Of a DNA stretch of 5,526 nt, positions 411 to 5,526 are shown piece by piece; within the stretch, counting starts at the first letter, position 1, and every line of letters begins with the position of its first letter. The notes below the pieces were generated by a model that was given only the letters and a program-made list of their open reading frames with translations, did not search any database and was not told where the DNA came from. The position numbers and the translations under genes were made by a program. Source of the stretch: a virus; the UHGV virus genome UHGV-0372727, one strand, 5' to 3'.

Positions 411-1268
411 ATGTGTCTATATCCAAGTATCATCGAGAATCCAAAATACGCCAAATCGAATGAAAACAGCAAAAGAATAAAGGATTATCGCCTAAGATGG
501 ATTCAAATTCCATGCGGACACTGCGAAGAATGCAGACGCGCAAAAGCAAATGAATGGAGGGTAAGATTAATGGAAGAAATAAAATCAAATCCAAAAAACA
601 TTATATTTGCGACACTGACATTCTCCGAAGAGAGCTTAAAAAAGCTAGAATATGACGAAAAGGAACCAAACAAAGCACCTCAAAAAGCAATTAGTCTATT
701 TAGAAAGCGATGGTGGAAAAAATACAAGGCACCACTAAAACACTGGCTAATCACAGAGCTAGGACATGATAACACCAAAAGAATACATCTACACGGCATT
801 ATATGGACAGAATTAACAGAAGAACAATTCGAGAAAGAATGGGGGTACGGCTGGATATTCTTCGGATACGAAGTGAATGAAAGAACAATAAACTACATCA
901 TAAAATACATAACAAAGAGAGACGAAGACAACCCCGAATTCAACGGAAAGATATTCACTTCAAAAAGGATCGGAATAGGCTACATAAACAAAGACACACT
1001 CAGAAGGCATAAATATCAAGACAGATTCACAGAAGAAACGTATAGAACGGAATCCGGAATAAAAGCCGCATTACCAATGTATTACAAACAAAAAATATGG
1101 ACAGATCAAGAACGCGAAGCCCTCCGAATTATAAAGGAGGAGAAGCAGACAAAGTACTACAACAAAACTCCTATCAAAGTAGAAACAATAGAACAATACA
1201 AAGAGTATGTGGACGCAGTAAAATACTGGCAATCAATCAAAAAGTATGACAGAAAGAGAAAAAAATGA
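411..1268 (+). CDS. VP4: Rolling-circle replication initiation protein (Microviridae VP4 / gpA-like HUH endonuclease), 285 aa
   Basis: An N-terminal Cys cluster IPCGHCEEC (aa 34-41) like the conserved VP4 N-terminus. RCR motif I IIFATLTF (aa 64-71). ELGHDNTKRIHLHGIIW (aa 116-132), the HUH metal-binding motif II. NYIIKYITK (aa 161-169), the YxxKYxxK two-tyrosine catalytic motif III. All are in phiX A / gokushovirus VP4 order. TGA stop. Confidence 0.9.
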   Translation: MCLYPSIIENPKYAKSNENSKRIKDYRLRWIQIPCGHCEECRRAKANEWRVRLMEEIKSNPKNIIFATLTFSEESLKKLEYDEKEPNKAPQKAISLFRKRWWKKYKAPLKHWLITELGHDNTKRIHLHGIIWTELTEEQFEKEWGYGWIFFGYEVNERTINYIIKYITKRDEDNPEFNGKIFTSKRIGIGYINKDTLRRHKYQDRFTEETYRTESGIKAALPMYYKQKIWTDQEREALRIIKEEKQTKYYNKTPIKVETIEQYKEYVDAVKYWQSIKKYDRKRKK

Positions 1269-1434
1269 AATATGCAAAGGGTACGCAGACCTAATCATAA
1301 AAAAAGAACAAATAACTCGTGAACTATGGAAAACAGAGTTTACAATCAAGAAGTTGGAAGACGTATTAATACGAAACAAAATACTGATACCAACAGAGGC
1401 AGAGGAGACATCGGAGACAGATCAAGCAACCTAA
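1246..1434 (+). CDS. Hypothetical 62-aa ORF overlapping the Rep 3' end (frame 1) and the next ORF; may be non-coding
   Basis: ORF-track only. It overlaps Rep by 23 nt and the 1326..1682 ORF by 109 nt in another frame. Overprinted genes are common in Microviridae, but there is no independent support. Confidence 0.2.
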   Translation: MTEREKNEICKGYADLIIKKEQITRELWKTEFTIKKLEDVLIRNKILIPTEAEETSETDQAT

Positions 1435-1682
1435 TAAAGCTAATCGGCGCCGAAAGAGTATCTCAACGAAACTTCAAATACGAAGGAACATACTACGTGA
1501 CAGAAGACGGAGAAGTATACGACAAAAACCACGTAATCACTCAAAAAGTACAAAGAACCGGCGTAAGCTTCTACGAAGTAGTTGACTGGGAATACAACGA
1601 AAAAAGGCGACTATACGAGCCTACTATTAGAAGAATAGTAATGATCAAAAACACTAACACTCAATTATCACTAAACCTATGA
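1326..1682 (+). CDS. Hypothetical protein, 118 aa (unknown function; N-terminal third basic, C-terminal part Tyr/Glu-rich)
   Basis: First ATG after two in-frame TGA stops downstream of Rep. Its TGA stop overlaps the next ATG (ATGA at 1679-1682), suggesting translational coupling. Sensible amino-acid composition (…KYEGTYYVTEDGEVYDKNHVITQKVQRTGVSFYEVVDWEY…). Confidence 0.5.
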   Translation: MENRVYNQEVGRRINTKQNTDTNRGRGDIGDRSSNLIKLIGAERVSQRNFKYEGTYYVTEDGEVYDKNHVITQKVQRTGVSFYEVVDWEYNEKRRLYEPTIRRIVMIKNTNTQLSLNL

Positions 1683-1849
1683 ATGAAAAAGTAAAGAAGA
1701 TCGTAAAATGGATCGCGGTAATAGCGGCTGCGATCGGCGCGGCAGCTGCCGTGATCATGGAGCAGGGATGCACTCACAAGCACTTCCTCAAAGCAAATGG
1801 CATCAAAATCGACTCAATCGAAGTATCAACATCAACAAAGATCAAATAA
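1679..1849 (+). CDS. Small single-pass membrane protein, 56 aa (MNEKVKKIVKWIAVIAAAIGAAAAVIMEQGCTHKHFLKANGIKIDSIEVSTSTKIK). Candidate lysis protein/amurin-like; not in the supplied ORF track because it is short.
   Basis: Hand-translated frame-2 ORF. The ATG overlaps the upstream stop (ATGA). Basic N-terminus (KVKKIVK), a ~18-20 residue Ala/Ile/Val hydrophobic helix, and a polar 28-aa tail. TAA stop at 1847-1849 is followed 1 nt later by the next ATG. Locally GC-rich codons (GCN Ala run). Confidence 0.5.
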   Translation: MNEKVKKIVKWIAVIAAAIGAAAAVIMEQGCTHKHFLKANGIKIDSIEVSTSTKIK

Positions 1850-1850
1850 C

Positions 1851-2156
1851 ATGGACAACAAATTCAGAAATCAGTTACTTACTGAAAACAAACAAAGAGA
1901 AGAGGAACTCAAAAGTGTAAACCTCGAAATCGAAGAAAGAGCAGTATCAAAAAAAGGCCCGTTCGTACTGATTCGCAACAAAAACAACAAATGGGTAATC
2001 ACAACGTGCGGCGCACTCGTAAACGGGAAGGAATTCGACACTAAAGAGGATGCCGAAAAACATCTAGATAAAAAAACGTGGGATGACATCTTGACCGCAA
2101 CACTCATATTCATCTCACACGTAAATAGTCAAACGATAAACACTCAAGAAGAATAA
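1851..2156 (+). CDS. Hypothetical protein, 101 aa (MDNKFRNQLL…). I prefer the internal ATG at 1851 over the track's 1797, because 1797-1849 overlaps the membrane-protein ORF.
   Basis: ATG sits 1 nt after the upstream TAA. TAA stop at 2154-2156 is 3 nt before the capsid ATG. A KGPFVLIRNKNNKWVITTCGALVNGKEFDTKEDAEKHLDKKTW segment resembles a small beta-rich domain. Confidence 0.5.
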   Translation: MDNKFRNQLLTENKQREEELKSVNLEIEERAVSKKGPFVLIRNKNNKWVITTCGALVNGKEFDTKEDAEKHLDKKTWDDILTATLIFISHVNSQTINTQEE

Positions 2157-2159
2157 GCC

Positions 2160-4202
2160 ATGAAGAAAACACTAGGAGGAGAAAGACTCCGAAGCGAAAG
2201 CAAAATGGAGGTATATCTGCCTAATTTCGGCAGATCATCGCACAACGTGGGGAAAATAATCCGAACATCACAAGCATGCGGCACGATCGTTCCCTATTGG
2301 TGCCAAATAGGTTTGGATGGAACGACGTTCTATATCGACATCACGACAAAAGTAAAGACTTTGCCAACAACCGGACCTGTATTCGGAAGCTTCAAGCACC
2401 AAATCGACGTGTTCGTAATTCCGATCAGGCTCTACATTGCAGCGCTGCATAATAACGCCTTGGGAGTGGGGTTGAACATGAGCAAGGTATTGCTACCATG
2501 TTTTGGAGTCAGCACCGCCATCGCATCAATCTATGAAAACGATACCAACAGGGGACAAGTCAACCCGAGCTCGCTACTCGCATACCTGGGAATAAGGGGA
2601 CTCGGACGCTCCAAGACCAATTCACATATACGAAGATTTCCCGCGATGTTCAATCTGGCATACTGGGACATATTCAAAAACTACTACGCCAATAAACAAG
2701 AAGAAAACGCATATGTAATCACCGGAATAAACCATATCTGGAAGAGTATCAGTGTAGGAGATGGAGTTAAGTGGCTCAAGACATGGACGGAAAACAAAAG
2801 CCAAGCATACAGGATCGCTCCAACAGCTGATAAACCGTTGTACATCATGCTAGAGTTCGAGGAGAATGTCTCGCCCGAAGTGGTCAACGAAATCCAGTTC
2901 TTAACGAATATTCCCGACTCAACGCAGAAATTAAACGAGCTGACAAGACTCGGCGACTCCTTTGTATTCGAACGAACAGATCCGGAGGCATTGGGAATTA
3001 GGGAACCAAGCAACCTAAGAAAAGCAACTAAGGTCTACGCATACAAAGTCAAAAAGACTATCCAGATCGCATACAACATGGATATGGTCGGAGAGAATTC
3101 GATAACAATGCCAGACAACCAGAAAATCAAATTAACGCCGTTCCCATTAAAAAACATCGACGATGAACGAACCAAAATCTTAGCGGCACCCAGCACCTCG
3201 GTATACGAGCTAAACACTCAAAAAATGCCATACGCAGCAGCAATAAAAACTATATCACTACCAAACTATGACCGCAGCACAAAATATAACAGTACAAACT
3301 CATGGTATTCACAAGCAGGATTGGCAGTAAAAACATACCTTAGCGACAGATTCAACAACTGGCTAAACACCGAATGGATCGACGGAACAACAGGGGGGAT
3401 TAATGCAATTACAGCGGTAGATGTAACCGATGGAAAACTCACTATGGACGCTCTGATTCTTCAAAAGAAGATATTCAACATGCTAAACCGCGTTGCGATC
3501 ACAGACGGCACATACCAAGCATGGAGAGAAGCGACATACGGAATTAGAAGCGCAACGCTGCCTGAATCTCCTATATTCTGCGGTGGGATGCAAAGCGAAA
3601 TCGCATTTGATGAGATTGTATCAAATGCAGCAACAGACGAGGAGCCACTGGGAACACTTGCCGGGCGAGGAATTGCAACTATGTATAAATCCGGAAGAGG
3701 CCTGAAAATCAAATGCACGGAACCTAGTATGATCATGGCCCTAGGCTCGATCACACCTCGAATTGATTACAGTCAGGGCAACAAATGGTGGACAAGATTA
3801 GAGACTATGGATGACTTCCATAAGCCAACACTAGACGCGATCGGATTTCAAGAACTTATCACAGAAGAAGCAGCGGCATGGAATACAGAACTTGAGGAGA
3901 ACTTCACTCCCAAATACCATTCTCTAGGAAAACAACCATCATGGATCGAATACACAACAGATGTAAACGAAACATACGGCGAATTTGCCGCGGGAATGCC
4001 TTTAGCATTCATGTGCTTAAATAGAGTGTACGAAGAAAATGAGGACGGCTCGATCAAAAACACATCAACGTACATTGACCCTACGATATACAACAACATA
4101 TTCGCAGAGTCAAGACTGAGCTCGCAAAACTTCTGGGTACAAGTAGCATTTGATGTAACAGCACGCCGAGTAATGTCGGCAAAACAAATTCCAAATTTAT
4201 AA
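2160..4202 (+). CDS. VP1: Major capsid protein (Microviridae VP1 / F-like), 680 aa
   Basis: Uninterrupted 2043-nt ORF. N-terminal region LPNFGRSSHN…GTIVP…DGTTFYIDIT…KHQIDVFVIPIRLYIAAL matches the conserved gokushovirus VP1 N-terminal block (…FFVPLRL…). A downstream AYWDIFKNYYANKQEEN region matches the W..(Y/F)FRD.N block. Its size fits the larger Alpavirinae/gokushovirus-type capsid proteins. An alternative start at ATG 2205 (MEVYLPNF…) is possible. Confidence 0.92.
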   Translation: MKKTLGGERLRSESKMEVYLPNFGRSSHNVGKIIRTSQACGTIVPYWCQIGLDGTTFYIDITTKVKTLPTTGPVFGSFKHQIDVFVIPIRLYIAALHNNALGVGLNMSKVLLPCFGVSTAIASIYENDTNRGQVNPSSLLAYLGIRGLGRSKTNSHIRRFPAMFNLAYWDIFKNYYANKQEENAYVITGINHIWKSISVGDGVKWLKTWTENKSQAYRIAPTADKPLYIMLEFEENVSPEVVNEIQFLTNIPDSTQKLNELTRLGDSFVFERTDPEALGIREPSNLRKATKVYAYKVKKTIQIAYNMDMVGENSITMPDNQKIKLTPFPLKNIDDERTKILAAPSTSVYELNTQKMPYAAAIKTISLPNYDRSTKYNSTNSWYSQAGLAVKTYLSDRFNNWLNTEWIDGTTGGINAITAVDVTDGKLTMDALILQKKIFNMLNRVAITDGTYQAWREATYGIRSATLPESPIFCGGMQSEIAFDEIVSNAATDEEPLGTLAGRGIATMYKSGRGLKIKCTEPSMIMALGSITPRIDYSQGNKWWTRLETMDDFHKPTLDAIGFQELITEEAAAWNTELEENFTPKYHSLGKQPSWIEYTTDVNETYGEFAAGMPLAFMCLNRVYEENEDGSIKNTSTYIDPTIYNNIFAESRLSSQNFWVQVAFDVTARRVMSAKQIPNL

Positions 4203-4206
4203 CACC

Positions 4207-4530
4207 ATGAAAACAGCAAGAAGTAGAAAAGGATGCATCAATGATCCAAACCTCACATACCAAGCAGACCCAAGAGAGGTAAAACTGAGGAAGATAATCA
4301 ACGGCGAAGCCAACAACATGGAGGATGGAGTATTTCCAACAATCTACACGGAAAAAAAGGATGGAGTACAACCTGAATTCGACATAAGGACAGATCGATT
4401 CGAGGTAGCGATAGACGCGATAGATAAGATTAATCAAAGCGCAGCAAACCAGATCGCAAAAAACAAGGGTGAAACTGAAGCCGTAAAAGATTTCGGGACA
4501 GGAGTAAAAACCGATCCCGAAAAGAGCTAA
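4207..4530 (+). CDS. Hypothetical protein, 107 aa, between the capsid and pilot genes (possible scaffolding/minor structural protein)
   Basis: Starts 4 nt after the VP1 TAA. Acidic, low-complexity C-terminal half (…FEVAIDAIDKINQSAANQIAKNKGETEAVKDFGTGVKTDPEKS). Followed by the hairpin terminator. It occupies the slot of spike protein G in phiX-type genomes. Confidence 0.5.
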   Translation: MKTARSRKGCINDPNLTYQADPREVKLRKIINGEANNMEDGVFPTIYTEKKDGVQPEFDIRTDRFEVAIDAIDKINQSAANQIAKNKGETEAVKDFGTGVKTDPEKS

Positions 4531-4559
4531 AGCAGCCGTATAAAGCTCTACCAAAACTC

Positions 4560-4593
4560 AAAGAGGGGGGATGTTTCCGCCCCCCCCTCTTTT
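4560..4593 (+). terminator. GC-rich hairpin followed by a T-run: putative intrinsic terminator and/or ssDNA secondary-structure signal
   Basis: AAAGAGGGGGG (4560-4570) pairs perfectly with CCCCCCTCTTT (4582-4592), an 11-bp stem with an 11-nt loop ATGTTTCCGCC. A TTTT run immediately follows. It lies directly after the 107-aa ORF stop. Confidence 0.6.
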
Positions 4594-4686
4594 AACCCTC
4601 ATAAATACGTGTGGCACAGGGCGGTAGACGTTTATACATATATAACAAGAACATAAGGTGTAAATTCTTTTAAGAAAAGAACGAAA
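4594..4686 (+). promoter_or_regulatory. Intergenic AT-rich region upstream of VP2; putative promoter / regulatory region
   Basis: The longest non-coding stretch in the window. Contains GTTTATACATATATAACAAG with TATAAC-like elements. No Shine-Dalgarno motif before ATG 4687. The promoter call is by position only. Confidence 0.3.
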
Positions 4687-5526
4687 ATGAGCTTTAAAAA
4701 AATACTGGAGTTACTCGAAAAAGGAGAGGATCTAACAAGCCCTCTCTCGGGCATGATAGGCAACGTCTCAGGGATTTTCAACATGCTAGGTATAGGCAAA
4801 AGGAAACAGATAAGACAGCAAAAAGAGATGGCAGAGAATGCGGCCAAAATAAACTACAAATACGGAGAAATGGCGGCGGAGAATGCATTCGAAAGACAGC
4901 AAGTATTATACAACAGAACCTACCAAGACCAAAGCTACGCTAACAAAGTCGCACAAATGGATGCAGCAGGATTGTCTCCAGGCCTAATGTATGGTGGAGG
5001 TGGGGCCAGCGGTGGGGGGGCCGGATCGACGACAGGTGCCCCCATGGGGGCAACGGGTGCTACCGGTGCAGGATCAGCAGCCGACCCTAATGCACAACTG
5101 CAAGCATTGATGTCACTACGACAGGTGCGGATGAGCGAGCGAAAGAACGAAGCGGAAATTAACCTACTTAATACTCAAGCAGATGCACTCAAGGCAGAAG
5201 CGGGTAAAAACAAAGAGGAAACCCAATCAATAATCGAAAAGAGGCTATGGCAAGTAAAACAAGAGATGTTTGAAGGGTGGAAAGGCTTCATTGACACAGC
5301 AAACCAACTATGGGATCAGATGGTAAAATGGCAACCCACAAAAAAAACAACGATCGACGGCAAGGAAGTCGAAATACCTAAATACTTCGAAATAGAGGAT
5401 GACAAATTCGGCAAAATTGTATTCGGAGAGGAATCATTCCAGGGCGATATGATGACAGCTGAAAAACAGATCCTCGAAGGAACGGCGGCGATCAAAACTC
5501 TAGAGAGCATCTACGCAGACAAAAAA
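4687..5526 (+). CDS. VP2: DNA pilot / minor capsid protein (Microviridae VP2 / H-like), 3'-truncated by the window end (280 codons visible)
   Basis: Frame 1 is open from ATG 4687 to the last base. Hydrophobic N-terminal segment (SPLSGMIGNVSGIFNMLGIG). Conserved VP2 signature …AENAFERQQVLYNRTYQDQSYANKVAQMDAAGLSPGLMY…, followed by a Gly-rich tract GGGGASGGGAGSTTGAPMGATGATGAG and a helical C-terminal part. The supplied ORF track does not list it because it lacks a stop. Confidence 0.8.
   Translation, partial: MSFKKILELLEKGEDLTSPLSGMIGNVSGIFNMLGIGKRKQIRQQKEMAENAAKINYKYGEMAAENAFERQQVLYNRTYQDQSYANKVAQMDAAGLSPGLMYGGGGASGGGAGSTTGAPMGATGATGAGSAADPNAQLQALMSLRQVRMSERKNEAEINLLNTQADALKAEAGKNKEETQSIIEKRLWQVKQEMFEGWKGFIDTANQLWDQMVKWQPTKKTTIDGKEVEIPKYFEIEDDKFGKIVFGEESFQGDMMTAEKQILEGTAAIKTLESIYADKK

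What the first reader, a model, noticed from the sequence alone, without database searches (positions are those of the whole stretch)
1679..1849. Unannotated 56-aa single-TM protein translationally coupled between Rep and capsid: candidate single-gene lysis protein
Gokushovirus-like and Bacteroidetes-associated microviruses have no characterised lysis gene. This ORF is too short for the supplied ORF track. It has the hallmarks of a real gene: an ATGA overlap with the upstream stop, the next ATG 1 nt after its TAA, and clean topology (KVKKIVK basic N-terminus, a 17-20 residue Ala-rich helix WIAVIAAAIGAAAAVIM, a polar 28-aa C-tail). That architecture resembles phiX174 E and other single-gene lysis proteins whose N-terminal TM domain carries the activity. 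Unlike E it is not embedded in another gene. It could be a new lysis-protein family, or a small membrane protein with another role (e.g. superinfection exclusion).
Basis: partly seen in the sequence, partly recalled or inferred. Interest (0 to 1): 0.62.

Follow-up and report, generated by a model that had tools for sequence, protein, structure and literature searches.

The report
Membrane-tethered mini-protein, candidate microvirus lysis gene
A tiny 56-residue gene in a human-gut single-stranded-DNA phage is real and strongly conserved, descends from a family of miniature phage lipoproteins, and is the phage's only plausible membrane-acting lysis factor, although nobody has tested that function.

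Summary
ORF 1679-1849 encodes 56 aa, starts in an ATGA overlap with the upstream stop, and ends 1 nt before the next ATG. It carries the only strongly hydrophobic stretch in any + strand frame of this 5.5-kb circular microvirus genome.

It is a genuine gene. It is intact in 37 distinct relatives, and its dN/dS of 0.08 is the lowest in the genome. The two alternative frames give values above 1.8.

The "phiX174 E-like" reading needs revision. ORF56 is homologous to 60-67-aa proteins with a canonical lipobox (..FTSC) that occupy the same slot in the nearest outgroup clade (mature-region hhalign P = 8e-6). Its invariant Cys31 aligns with their lipobox Cys. Its own box (EQGC) fails the lipobox rule at position -3. 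Constraint has also shifted from the tail to the N-terminus and helix. This suggests a lipoprotein that became a permanently anchored single-pass protein.

The lysis role is circumstantial:
- The genome has no muralytic gene.
- Relatives carry Amidase_2, Peptidase_M15_3 or DUF5675 genes, and none of those genomes has a lipobox gene.
- In phages with 71% identical capsids, a mini-lipoprotein and a DUF5675+TM cassette replace each other in the same slot.

Against this, about 45% of related clusters have neither. It is not a member of the E or colicin-lysis families. I score it as a new variant of a known kind, of moderate to high interest.

The parts
1679..1849 (+). ORF56 coding sequence (56 codons plus TAA)
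   Evidence: Intact in 37 variants with dN/dS 0.09. Called as a gene in public assemblies.
1679..1682 (+). ATGA start/stop overlap with the upstream ORF118 (TGA at 1680-1682)
   Evidence: ATGA is present in every relative. Translational coupling is inferred, not shown.
1679..1708 (+). Basic n-region M1-K10 (MNEKVKKIVK, net charge +3), predicted cytoplasmic
   Evidence: M1, E3 and K10 are invariant. M1 and E3 are also conserved in the homologous FTSC family.
1709..1759 (+). Hydrophobic Ala/Gly-rich helix W11-M27. It is an ancestral lipoprotein signal-peptide h-region and probably now a permanent TM anchor.
   Evidence: KD 2.44. AlphaFold predicts a helix at 3-29 with pLDDT 82-91. Nearly invariant. 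dN/dS is 0.027 for codons 1-30.
1760..1771 (+). E28-Q29-G30-C31, a degenerate lipobox. Cys31 aligns with the lipobox Cys of homologues.
   Evidence: E is 102/103, Q 102/103, G 103/103 and C 103/103. The PROSITE PS51257 rule fails only at position -3 (and direct reading).
1769..1846 (+). Periplasmic tail C31-K56 (26 aa), with family-wide invariant G41 and D45 and a low-confidence beta-hairpin prediction
   Evidence: Mature-only hhalign against the FTSC family gives P=7.6e-6. AlphaFold predicts strands at 31-37 and 47-53 with pLDDT 62-66.
1847..1853 (+). TAA-C-ATG junction to the downstream ORF101
   Evidence: the junction is conserved. The in-frame upstream ATG at 1797 is present in only 15 of 37 relatives, so ORF101 starts at 1851.
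1326..1682 (+). Upstream neighbour ORF118, function unknown and fast-evolving
   Evidence: dN/dS 0.51. No family match.
1851..2156 (+). Downstream neighbour ORF101, conserved across the wider group directly upstream of the capsid gene. It marks the 'slot'.
   Evidence: jackhmmer finds 46 homologues among related genomes.

Best explanation
ORF56 is a Sec-targeted, membrane-tethered mini-protein. Its N-terminus is cytoplasmic, it has one Ala/Gly-rich helix, and a 26-29-residue tail sits in the periplasm.

It is a diverged member of a family of phage mini-(pro)lipoproteins. These occupy the accessory slot just upstream of the ORF101/capsid genes in gut microviruses of the Bacteroidales-associated (Alpavirinae-like) group.

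In this clade the lipobox has been spoiled at position -3 (Leu/Phe replaced by an invariant Glu). The most likely result is that the former signal peptide is no longer removed and now serves as a functional transmembrane anchor.

Its most likely job is to be the phage's single-gene lysis effector. It would be made together with the structural proteins and accumulate in the inner membrane. There, through its helix and its membrane-proximal EQGC/tail, it would disable a membrane-associated step of cell-wall precursor supply or polymerisation, or otherwise destabilise the envelope. Growing cells would then burst without any phage muralytic enzyme.

What is shown: the gene is real, the constraint pattern, homology to lipobox proteins, and absence of any other membrane or muralytic gene. 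What is inferred: topology, the lack of cleavage, the lysis role, and the target.
For: The gene is real and essential-looking:
- 37 of 37 variants are intact.
- dN/dS is 0.082, the lowest in the genome.
- There are 189 protein clusters in metagenomes, all on contigs of about 5.5 kb.

Membrane targeting:
- It has the only hydrophobic segment in the genome.
- It has a basic N-terminus.
- AlphaFold predicts a helix at 3-29.

Lipoprotein ancestry:
- The family HMM hits the slot proteins of L072-L075 at E=3.6e-5 to 2e-3.
- hhalign gives P=4.8e-5 over the full length and 7.6e-6 for the mature parts only.
- Cys31, G41 and D45 are invariant across both families.
- Those homologues, and several unrelated slot proteins, pass the strict lipobox rule.

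Loss of cleavage:
- Glu at -3 is invariant.
- Pairwise identity for n-region / h-region / tail is 0.93/0.90/0.69 here, against 0.64/0.70/0.85 in the canonical-lipobox family.

Lysis role:
- The window has no muralytic domain.
- 10 of 36 related genomes without a lipobox gene carry DUF5675 (Tlde1/YkuD-like), Amidase_2, Peptidase_M15_3 or LAS-like genes, against 0 of 19 genomes with one (Fisher p=0.010).
- L042/L045 (49-aa IGGC lipoprotein) and L085/L091 (DUF5675 plus an 80-aa TM ORF) have 71% identical capsids, and the two cassettes sit in the same slot.
- Other relatives carry unrelated 26-60-aa TM ORFs there. This matches the rapid turnover known for single-gene lysis proteins (PMC7693330).
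Against: - There is no experimental evidence of any kind.
- About 18 of 40 related capsid clusters, including bajarodmic virus 724 (56% capsid identity), have neither a hydrophobic ORF nor a muralytic gene in any + frame. A conserved soluble protein could therefore be the real lysis factor, with the slot genes being dispensable accessories.
- After collapsing to clusters, the exclusivity is not significant (p=0.12).
- The Rep-to-capsid interval may simply be the only place where accessory genes fit, so sharing a slot need not mean sharing a function.
- G30 and C31 remain invariant, which would fit continued lipidation as well.
- A dN/dS as low as Rep's is unusual for known small lysis proteins.
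- The tail model has low confidence (pLDDT 62-66).
- The host is only inferred (a Dysgonomonas prophage and a Bacteroides MAG at 39-40% capsid identity).
Confidence: 0.45

Rival explanations
1. It is still a true lipoprotein. Lgt and LspA of the Bacteroidales host process it despite Glu at -3. The 26-residue lipopeptide then acts from the periplasmic leaflet of the inner or outer membrane as a release or lysis factor. This would be functionally analogous to colicin-release (BRP) lipoproteins or entericidin B, that is, envelope permeabilisation rather than a block in wall synthesis.
For: - It is homologous to canonical-lipobox proteins, with Cys aligned to Cys.
- G30 (position -1), Q29 (position -2, allowed by PROSITE) and C31 are invariant.
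- The Cys position (31), the basic n-region and the uncharged h-region all fit the rule.
- BRPs are prolipoproteins of 44-49 aa with mature parts of about 28 aa that cause quasi-lysis (PMC2896534).
- A source database labels one FTSC-family member 'Lysis protein' (P0307).
Against: - Glu at -3 violates the lipobox rule. No other slot lipoprotein in my sample has a charged residue there.
- Constraint lies on the helix rather than the tail, the opposite of the canonical family.
- Similarity to BRPs disappears once signal peptides are removed (P=0.038 for FTSC and 0.16 for ORF56). ORF56 against BRP over the full length gives P=0.25.
- BRP-type permeabilisation is not known to release 25-30 nm virions through intact murein (my own knowledge).
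Confidence: 0.2
2. It is a superinfection-exclusion or receptor-masking factor. This would be a small envelope-anchored protein, like T5 Llp or the Cor proteins, that inactivates the phage's receptor or entry route. It would protect infected cells and keep progeny from being wasted on cell debris. It would not be a lysis protein.
For: - Small phage lipoproteins are classic exclusion factors (my own knowledge of Llp and Cor).
- Strong purifying selection suits a specific protein-protein interaction.
- Many related microviruses manage without any membrane ORF, as expected for an accessory function.
- Weak NCBIfam hits to entry-exclusion and other lipoprotein families occurred, but only at the level of signal-peptide composition.
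Against: - An exclusion gene has no reason to be mutually exclusive with endolysin-type genes, or to be swapped for a DUF5675+TM cassette in the same slot.
- This genome would then have no recognisable lysis function at all.
- A 26-aa tail is much smaller than Llp or Cor.
- There is no PADLOC match.
- The exact protein is never seen on a contig longer than 10 kb, so there is no evidence of lysogeny.
Confidence: 0.15
3. It has some other membrane role. Examples are tethering replication or assembly to the membrane, assisting DNA delivery or virion maturation, or acting as a holin- or spanin-like helper to an unidentified lysis protein.
For: - Its constraint is as strong as for Rep and the pilot protein, which suggests a core function.
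- It is tightly packed with the morphogenesis genes.
- Relatives that carry endolysins also carry small TM ORFs that could be holins.
Against: - There is no endolysin for a holin to serve and no i-spanin partner.
- Slot proteins are replaced by unrelated families or lost in close relatives. That is atypical for a core morphogenetic factor.
Confidence: 0.15
4. It is a chance ORF, or an overprinted non-coding stretch, and not a gene.
For: It is short (56 codons) and matches no family in Pfam, PHROGs, NCBIfam, PADLOC or PDB.
Against: - 37 of 37 variants are intact.
- The third-position variation pattern and dN/dS of 0.09, against more than 1.8 in the other frames, indicate coding.
- Homologues exist in another clade.
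Confidence: 0.01

Closest known systems
phiX174 protein E and other single-gene lysis proteins (amurins: Qbeta A2, phage M LysM, MS2 L)
   Same: It is a single small protein in a tiny phage that has no endolysin. It has an N-terminal hydrophobic helix under strong constraint and is expressed among the morphogenesis genes. Such proteins turn over quickly between related phages.
   Different: There is no sequence similarity (no Pfam or PHROG hit). The gene is not overprinted inside another gene. It is 56 aa rather than 91 aa. It descends from a lipobox protein and keeps an invariant Cys at the periplasmic end of the helix. The target and any chaperone requirement are unknown, and the host phylum is different.
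Colicin-release lysis proteins / bacteriocin release proteins (Pfam Lysis_col)
   Same: The precursor is of the same size class (44-49 aa against 56-67 aa), with a basic n-region, an h-region, a Cys and a polar tail of about 26-30 aa. Both are lethal or lytic without a muralytic activity. The FTSC homologues begin CSASYML.., resembling CQANYIR...
   Different: Similarity is driven by the signal peptide and is not significant for the mature parts. There is no HMM hit at E<=10. ORF56's own lipobox is degenerate. BRPs are plasmid genes of Enterobacteriaceae that act through OmpLA (PMC2896534).
Microviral slot mini-lipoproteins (FTSC family in L072-L075 and P0254-P0300; analogues with LTSC, VQSC, IGGC, GVSC and LLAC boxes). 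These are undescribed in the literature I could search.
   Same: The FTSC family is demonstrably homologous, occupies the same slot and has the same length class (its 60-aa variants share ORF56's spacing). It shares M1, E3, W11, C31, L37, G41, D45, T53 and K54.
   Different: Those proteins have canonical lipoboxes and their mature tails are the conserved part. The other box families show no significant sequence similarity to ORF56.
Phage lipoproteins Rz1 (o-spanin), T5 Llp and Cor
   Same: They are small phage-encoded envelope proteins with an N-terminal signal peptide followed by a Cys.
   Different: Rz1 needs an endolysin, a holin and an i-spanin partner, and none is present here. Llp and Cor are larger exclusion factors. 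There is no sequence similarity (the best hhalign control against Rz1 gives P=0.009 over 10 columns at the box).

Membership tests
Bacterial lipoprotein (PROSITE PS51257 rule) | Lys or Arg within the first 7 residues | tested here: met
   K4, K6 and K7.
Bacterial lipoprotein (PROSITE PS51257 rule) | Cys between positions 15 and 35, preceded by an uncharged stretch (positions -10 to -5 not D/E/R/K) | tested here: met
   The Cys is at position 31 and positions 21-26 are AAAAVI.
Bacterial lipoprotein (PROSITE PS51257 rule) | Position -1 in [AGS], position -2 in [LIVMFYSTAGCQ], position -4 in [LIVMFWSTAG] | tested here: met
   G30, Q29 and M/L/I27.
Bacterial lipoprotein (PROSITE PS51257 rule) | Position -3 in [LIVMFWSTAG] | tested here: not met
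   E28 in 102 of 103 family members and D in one. The regex scan passes the slot proteins of L042, L048, L060, L066 and L072-L077, but not ORF56.
Bacterial lipoprotein (PROSITE PS51257 rule) | Actual diacylglyceryl modification and cleavage by signal peptidase II | not testable with these tools
   This needs labelling, mass spectrometry or globomycin. No SignalP or LipoP was available.
Microviral FTSC mini-lipoprotein family (this work) | Significant profile similarity over the mature region, with the Cys aligned | tested here: met
   HMM E=3.6e-5. hhalign P=4.8e-5 for the full length and 7.6e-6 for the mature parts.
Microviral FTSC mini-lipoprotein family (this work) | Same genomic slot (upstream of the ORF101 homologue and the capsid gene) | tested here: met
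Colicin-release lysis protein (Lysis_col / BRP) | Sequence match to the family profile | tested here: not met
   No Pfam hit at E<=10. hhalign against 8 genuine BRPs gives P=0.25 for the full length and 0.16 for the mature parts.
Colicin-release lysis protein (Lysis_col / BRP) | Canonical lipobox and the conserved mature motif CQANYIRDVQGG | tested here: not met
   ORF56 has EQGC|THKHFLKANG.
phiX174 E lysis protein (Pfam Microvir_lysis) | Sequence match to the family profile | tested here: not met
   No Pfam or PHROG hit.
phiX174 E lysis protein (Pfam Microvir_lysis) | Gene overprinted within the scaffolding gene | tested here: not met
   It has its own frame and overlaps its neighbours by only 4 nt.
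Single-gene lysis protein (functional class) | Expression alone causes lysis; the phage lacks a muralytic enzyme | tested here: inconclusive
   Absence of a muralytic domain is shown. Lytic activity cannot be tested here.
Spanin (o-spanin / u-spanin) | Outer-membrane lipoprotein with an i-spanin partner or a C-terminal TM, alongside a holin and an endolysin | tested here: not met
   The genome has no second membrane ORF and no endolysin.

The most novel reading that the evidence does not exclude
Gut microviruses of Bacteroidales carry a previously undescribed and rapidly diversifying class of miniature envelope-tethered peptides, either lipoproteins or, as here, a lipoprotein turned signal-anchor. 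These would be their single-gene lysis proteins. They would kill from the periplasmic face of the membrane by hitting an essential envelope target in Bacteroidota, making them a new family of 'protein antibiotics' for a phylum in which none is known.
Probability: 0.35. Interest if true: 0.8.

Novelty: new variant of a known kind. Interest (0 to 1): 0.6.

Why it matters
How non-phiX microviruses get out of their hosts is an open question. These are among the most abundant phages in the human gut. Only predicted peptidases have been noted, and only in a minority of genomes (PMC3394797, PMC9239249).

This work provides a concrete, testable candidate in a very common gut microvirus. The exact protein occurs in at least 139 assembly blocks. 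It also places the candidate in a wider set of slot proteins:
- several mini-lipoprotein families;
- small TM ORFs;
- DUF5675, M15 and amidase cassettes.

If the lysis role is confirmed, suppressor mapping would reveal a vulnerable envelope step in Bacteroidota. The flip from 'cleaved lipoprotein' to 'retained anchor' would also be a clean case of a signal peptide acquiring a function of its own.

Tried and rejected
- Nucleotide and protein searches of deposited phage genomes with the whole window and with ORF56 found nothing. The capsid's best deposited relatives are only 56% identical.
- An exhaustive profile search of 1.84 billion representatives found only the same narrow family, chimeric assemblies, and one spurious 769-aa Cys-rich repeat protein.
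- Homology of ORF56 to the abundant VQSC slot family (2394 hits) and to the LTSC, IGGC and GVSC families is not supported (HMM E>=0.08; hhalign P=0.09 and 0.26). I treat them as positional and architectural analogues only.
- I pursued the link to colicin lysis proteins because one homologue is labelled 'Lysis protein' in nr. Real BRPs were fetched from plasmids. The full-length hhalign signal (P=6.8e-5 for the FTSC family) collapses to P=0.038 when signal peptides are removed. Control lipoproteins (EcnA and others) give P=0.002-0.04. I rejected it as a membership claim.
- I considered signal peptidase I cleavage under the Bacteroidetes 'Q-rule' (PMC5837995), because of Q29. I rejected it because positions -1 and -3 relative to Q29 would be E and I.
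- AlphaFold with the narrow alignment gave only the helix. With the joint alignment it gave a low-confidence hairpin. I did not take this to a fold search, because a 26-residue model at pLDDT of about 63 would give meaningless matches.
- The genome-collection scan for a host gave one close hit, a lone 5.7-kb scaffold in an Acinetobacter lwoffii assembly. I regard it as contamination.
- PADLOC and PDB sequence searches were empty.
- Literature searches for microvirus or Microviridae combined with lipobox, lipoprotein, DUF5675 or single-gene lysis found no prior description.
Full report
**What the window is.** The 5526-nt window is a complete circular microvirus genome with every gene on the + strand. 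The genes are:
- a pilot protein (4687-5526, continuing at 1-369);
- Rep (411-1268, PF23343);
- ORF62 (1246-1434);
- ORF118 (1326-1682);
- the target ORF56 (1679-1849);
- ORF101 (1851-2156);
- a 680-aa major capsid protein (2160-4202, Phage_F);
- a VP3-like ORF107 (4207-4530);
- a G/C-rich hairpin in the only non-coding gap.

Sixty-six related genomes were recovered from IMG/VR through the capsid protein. Thirty-seven of them also contain ORF56.

It is not a chance ORF.
- In 37 distinct nucleotide variants the ORF is always 56 codons long and both junctions are preserved. The single apparent break, L013, is a contig linearised inside the gene.
- Variation is concentrated at third codon positions (40 of 57, against 8 of 57 at second positions).
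- dN/dS is 0.09 in frame, against 1.8 and 2.3 in the other frames.
- Compared gene by gene, ORF56 has the lowest dN/dS in the genome at 0.082. Rep is 0.099, pilot 0.091, capsid 0.142, and the neighbours ORF118, ORF62 and ORF101 are 0.51, 0.27 and 0.25.
- It is also the only segment in any + strand frame of the genome with a 17-mer of KD >= 1.6.

The exact protein is present in 139 assembly blocks of public metagenomes. It is always on contigs under 10 kb, and ordinary gene callers call it there.

Two minor corrections apply. The ORF sits between ORF118 and ORF101, not directly between Rep and capsid. The upstream in-frame ATG of ORF101 at 1797 is not conserved (15 of 37), so ORF101 does start at 1851.

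**What it is.** No library knows this protein: Pfam, PHROGs, NCBIfam, PADLOC and PDB sequences all give nothing. An exhaustive HMMER search of 1.84 billion representatives finds only the same narrow family.

The informative evidence came from synteny. In more distant relatives (capsid 38-56% identical), the position just upstream of the ORF101 homologue and the capsid gene very often holds a small protein. This protein has a basic N-terminus and a hydrophobic stretch, followed directly by a canonical lipoprotein box and Cys: LLTSC, MIGGC, VQSC, GVSC, LLAC, FTSC, TTGC, TIGC. Several of these pass the strict PROSITE PS51257 rule.

ORF56 has an invariant Cys31 in exactly that place. G30 and Q29 are acceptable at positions -1 and -2. 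An invariant Glu28 sits at -3, which the rule forbids.

For most of these families I could not show sequence homology to ORF56. For one I could. The 60-67-aa 'FTSC' proteins of the nearest IMG/VR outgroup clade (L072-L075, capsid about 49% identical):
- are hit by the ORF56-family HMM at E = 3.6e-5 to 2e-3 in a database of 884 ORFs;
- align by hhalign at P = 4.8e-5 over 44 columns;
- align at P = 7.6e-6 with 84% probability when only the parts from the Cys onward are compared.

In the joint alignment M1, E3, C31, G41 and D45 are invariant, and W11, I19, L37, T53 and K54 nearly so. The 60-aa FTSC variants have the same spacing as ORF56. ORF56 is therefore a diverged member of a family of phage mini-prolipoproteins.

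**A flip in constraint.** In the canonical-lipobox FTSC family, mean pairwise identity is 0.64 for the n-region, 0.70 for the h-region and box, and 0.85 for the mature tail. That is the expected pattern for a cleaved signal peptide with a functional lipopeptide.

In the ORF56 family the pattern is reversed: 0.93, 0.90 and 0.69. This agrees with dN/dS of 0.027 for codons 1-30 against 0.17 for codons 31-56.

Together with the invariant acidic residue at -3, the simplest reading is that this clade has lost signal peptidase II processing. The former signal peptide would then be retained as a functionally important Ala/Gly-rich transmembrane helix (AAAIGAAAA, with small-xxx-small spacing). This is an inference. 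The continued invariance of G30 and C31 would also fit a lipoprotein that tolerates Glu at -3. I put retained anchor against true lipoprotein at roughly 55:35.

AlphaFold gives a confident helix at 3-29. With the joint alignment it also gives a low-confidence hairpin, with strands at 31-37 and 47-53 and pLDDT 62-66.

**What it does.** Nothing here is experimental. The case for lysis rests on four points.

1. The genome has no muralytic domain and no other membrane protein.

2. Relatives do carry wall-active genes in the same Rep-to-capsid interval, usually with a small TM ORF beside them:
   - Amidase_2 in a Dysgonomonas prophage (E=1.6e-16);
   - Peptidase_M15_3 in a Bacteroides MAG and in L089;
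   - DUF5675 (Tlde1/YkuD-like) in L040, L047, L085, L091 and L097;
   - weak LAS-like genes in L078 and L102.

   None of the 19 genomes with a lipobox gene has such an enzyme, against 10 of 36 genomes without one (Fisher p = 0.010 by genome).

3. Phages L042/L045 carry a 49-aa IGGC lipoprotein. L085/L091 carry DUF5675 plus an 80-aa TM ORF. Their capsids are 71% identical and their ORF101 homologues 62% identical, and the two cassettes occupy the same slot. This looks like a lysis-cassette swap.

4. The slot shows the turnover typical of single-gene lysis proteins. It holds several unrelated lipobox families, two-TM and single-TM mini-ORFs, and even a modular chimera of one family's signal peptide with another family's tail (P0305).

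**Caveats to the lysis case.**
- After collapsing to clusters of 70% capsid identity, the exclusivity is not significant (p = 0.12).
- About 18 of 40 clusters have neither an enzyme nor any hydrophobic ORF in any + frame. These include bajarodmic virus 724, one of the closest deposited relatives at 56% capsid identity. The true lysis factor of the whole group might therefore be a conserved soluble protein.
- The interval may simply be the only place where accessory genes fit.

I therefore give the lysis reading about 0.45, or 0.65 if the 'still a lipoprotein, BRP-like' variant is included. I give a superinfection-exclusion role about 0.15 and other membrane roles about 0.15.

**Comparison with known systems.** Functionally it would work like a single-gene lysis protein such as phiX174 E. 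However, it fails every membership feature of the E family that I could test: there is no profile match and it is not overprinted.

It resembles colicin-release lysis lipoproteins in size and layout, and one homologue is even labelled 'Lysis protein' in nr. When I compared it with eight genuine colicin-release proteins fetched from plasmids, the similarity proved to reside in the signal peptide. Mature-only P values were 0.038 for FTSC and 0.16 for ORF56, and control lipoproteins scored similarly. It is not a member of that family.

It lacks the partners a spanin needs.

The literature I could search describes M15 peptidases, and amidase or peptidase accessory genes, in microviruses (PMC3394797, PMC9239249). 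It does not mention small lipobox or TM proteins in this slot.

**Host and ecology.** The host is inferred to be Bacteroidales. The evidence is the distant prophage in Dysgonomonas, a Bacteroides MAG contig, and the published association of Alpavirinae with Bacteroides and Prevotella (PMC9239249). The sample names of contigs carrying the exact protein look like human gut metagenome cohorts, judging by their naming style. There is no Shine-Dalgarno motif upstream, which is consistent with Bacteroidota by my own knowledge. A close relative found as a lone scaffold in an Acinetobacter assembly is probably a contaminant.

**Verdict.**
It is a real, highly constrained, membrane-tethered mini-protein and the best lysis candidate. 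It is a derived lipoprotein-family member rather than an E-like protein, and the lysis role is untested.
- Novelty: a new variant of a known kind, namely small membrane- or lipid-anchored lysis or envelope effectors.
- Interest: 0.6.

Noticed in passing
window 4538-4637 (core 4560-4592): There is a perfect 11-nt G/C-rich inverted repeat, AAAGAGGGGGG / CCCCCCTCTTT, with an 11-nt loop. It is nested in a 15-nt imperfect inverted repeat and lies in the only sizeable non-coding gap, after ORF107. It could be a terminator and/or a replication origin.
   Followed up: partly
L040:1748-2276, L047:2388-2928, L085:4900-5380, L091:1208-1688, L097:2261-2764: Related microviruses carry a DUF5675 (Tlde1/YkuD-like L,D-transpeptidase fold) gene. 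In four of these loci (L040, L047, L085, L091) an overlapping ORF of 80-120 aa was also seen. It is hydrophobic (KD 2.06) in L085/L091 and only weakly so in L040/L047. It ends in an EF-hand-like D(I/L)NQDG(E/K)IGK motif. No such partner was examined in L097. The pair may be an undescribed microviral endolysin/holin pair.
   Followed up: partly
L070:3511-3936 and L071:2759-3243: A microvirus prophage in Dysgonomonas sp. 521 encodes an Amidase_2 protein immediately upstream of its capsid gene. A Bacteroides MAG contig encodes Peptidase_M15_3 followed by a 48-aa TM ORF.
   Followed up: partly
L069 (NZ_JACWEU010000076.1, whole 5673-nt scaffold): A phage with 87% capsid identity and an intact ORF56 appears as a stand-alone scaffold in an Acinetobacter lwoffii genome assembly. 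This is most likely contamination rather than host evidence.
   Followed up: no
P0305 (71 aa; metagenome protein): This is a chimera of the FTSC-family signal peptide with the tail type of the LTSC family (..YTKGDTTTTIIKYEQVGNIRK). It suggests modular recombination among the slot lipoproteins.
   Followed up: no
P0252 (769 aa; representative library): A Cys- and Pro-rich repeat protein matches the ORF56 tail profile five times (..PLKVNGVCVDTIQVSATH..; summed E=1e-10). It looks like a chance or low-complexity resemblance amplified by the repeats.
   Followed up: no
window 1246-1682: ORF62 overlaps the end of Rep and the start of ORF118 in different frames. ORF118 is the fastest-evolving gene (dN/dS 0.51). 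Its counterparts in distant relatives share only a C-terminal Q-x-x-L-F/W ending. Its function and true start are unknown.
   Followed up: no
L120 (PQ006946.1, bajarodmic virus 724) and about 18 of 40 related capsid clusters: These genomes have neither a muralytic-type gene nor any hydrophobic segment in any + strand frame. Their route of host lysis is entirely unaccounted for.
   Followed up: partly
L085 (8197 nt of a 9558-nt contig) and L014/L067 (11.6-kb contig): These contigs contain more than one genome length, with two capsid gene copies in L085. They are presumably concatemeric assemblies of circular genomes.
   Followed up: no
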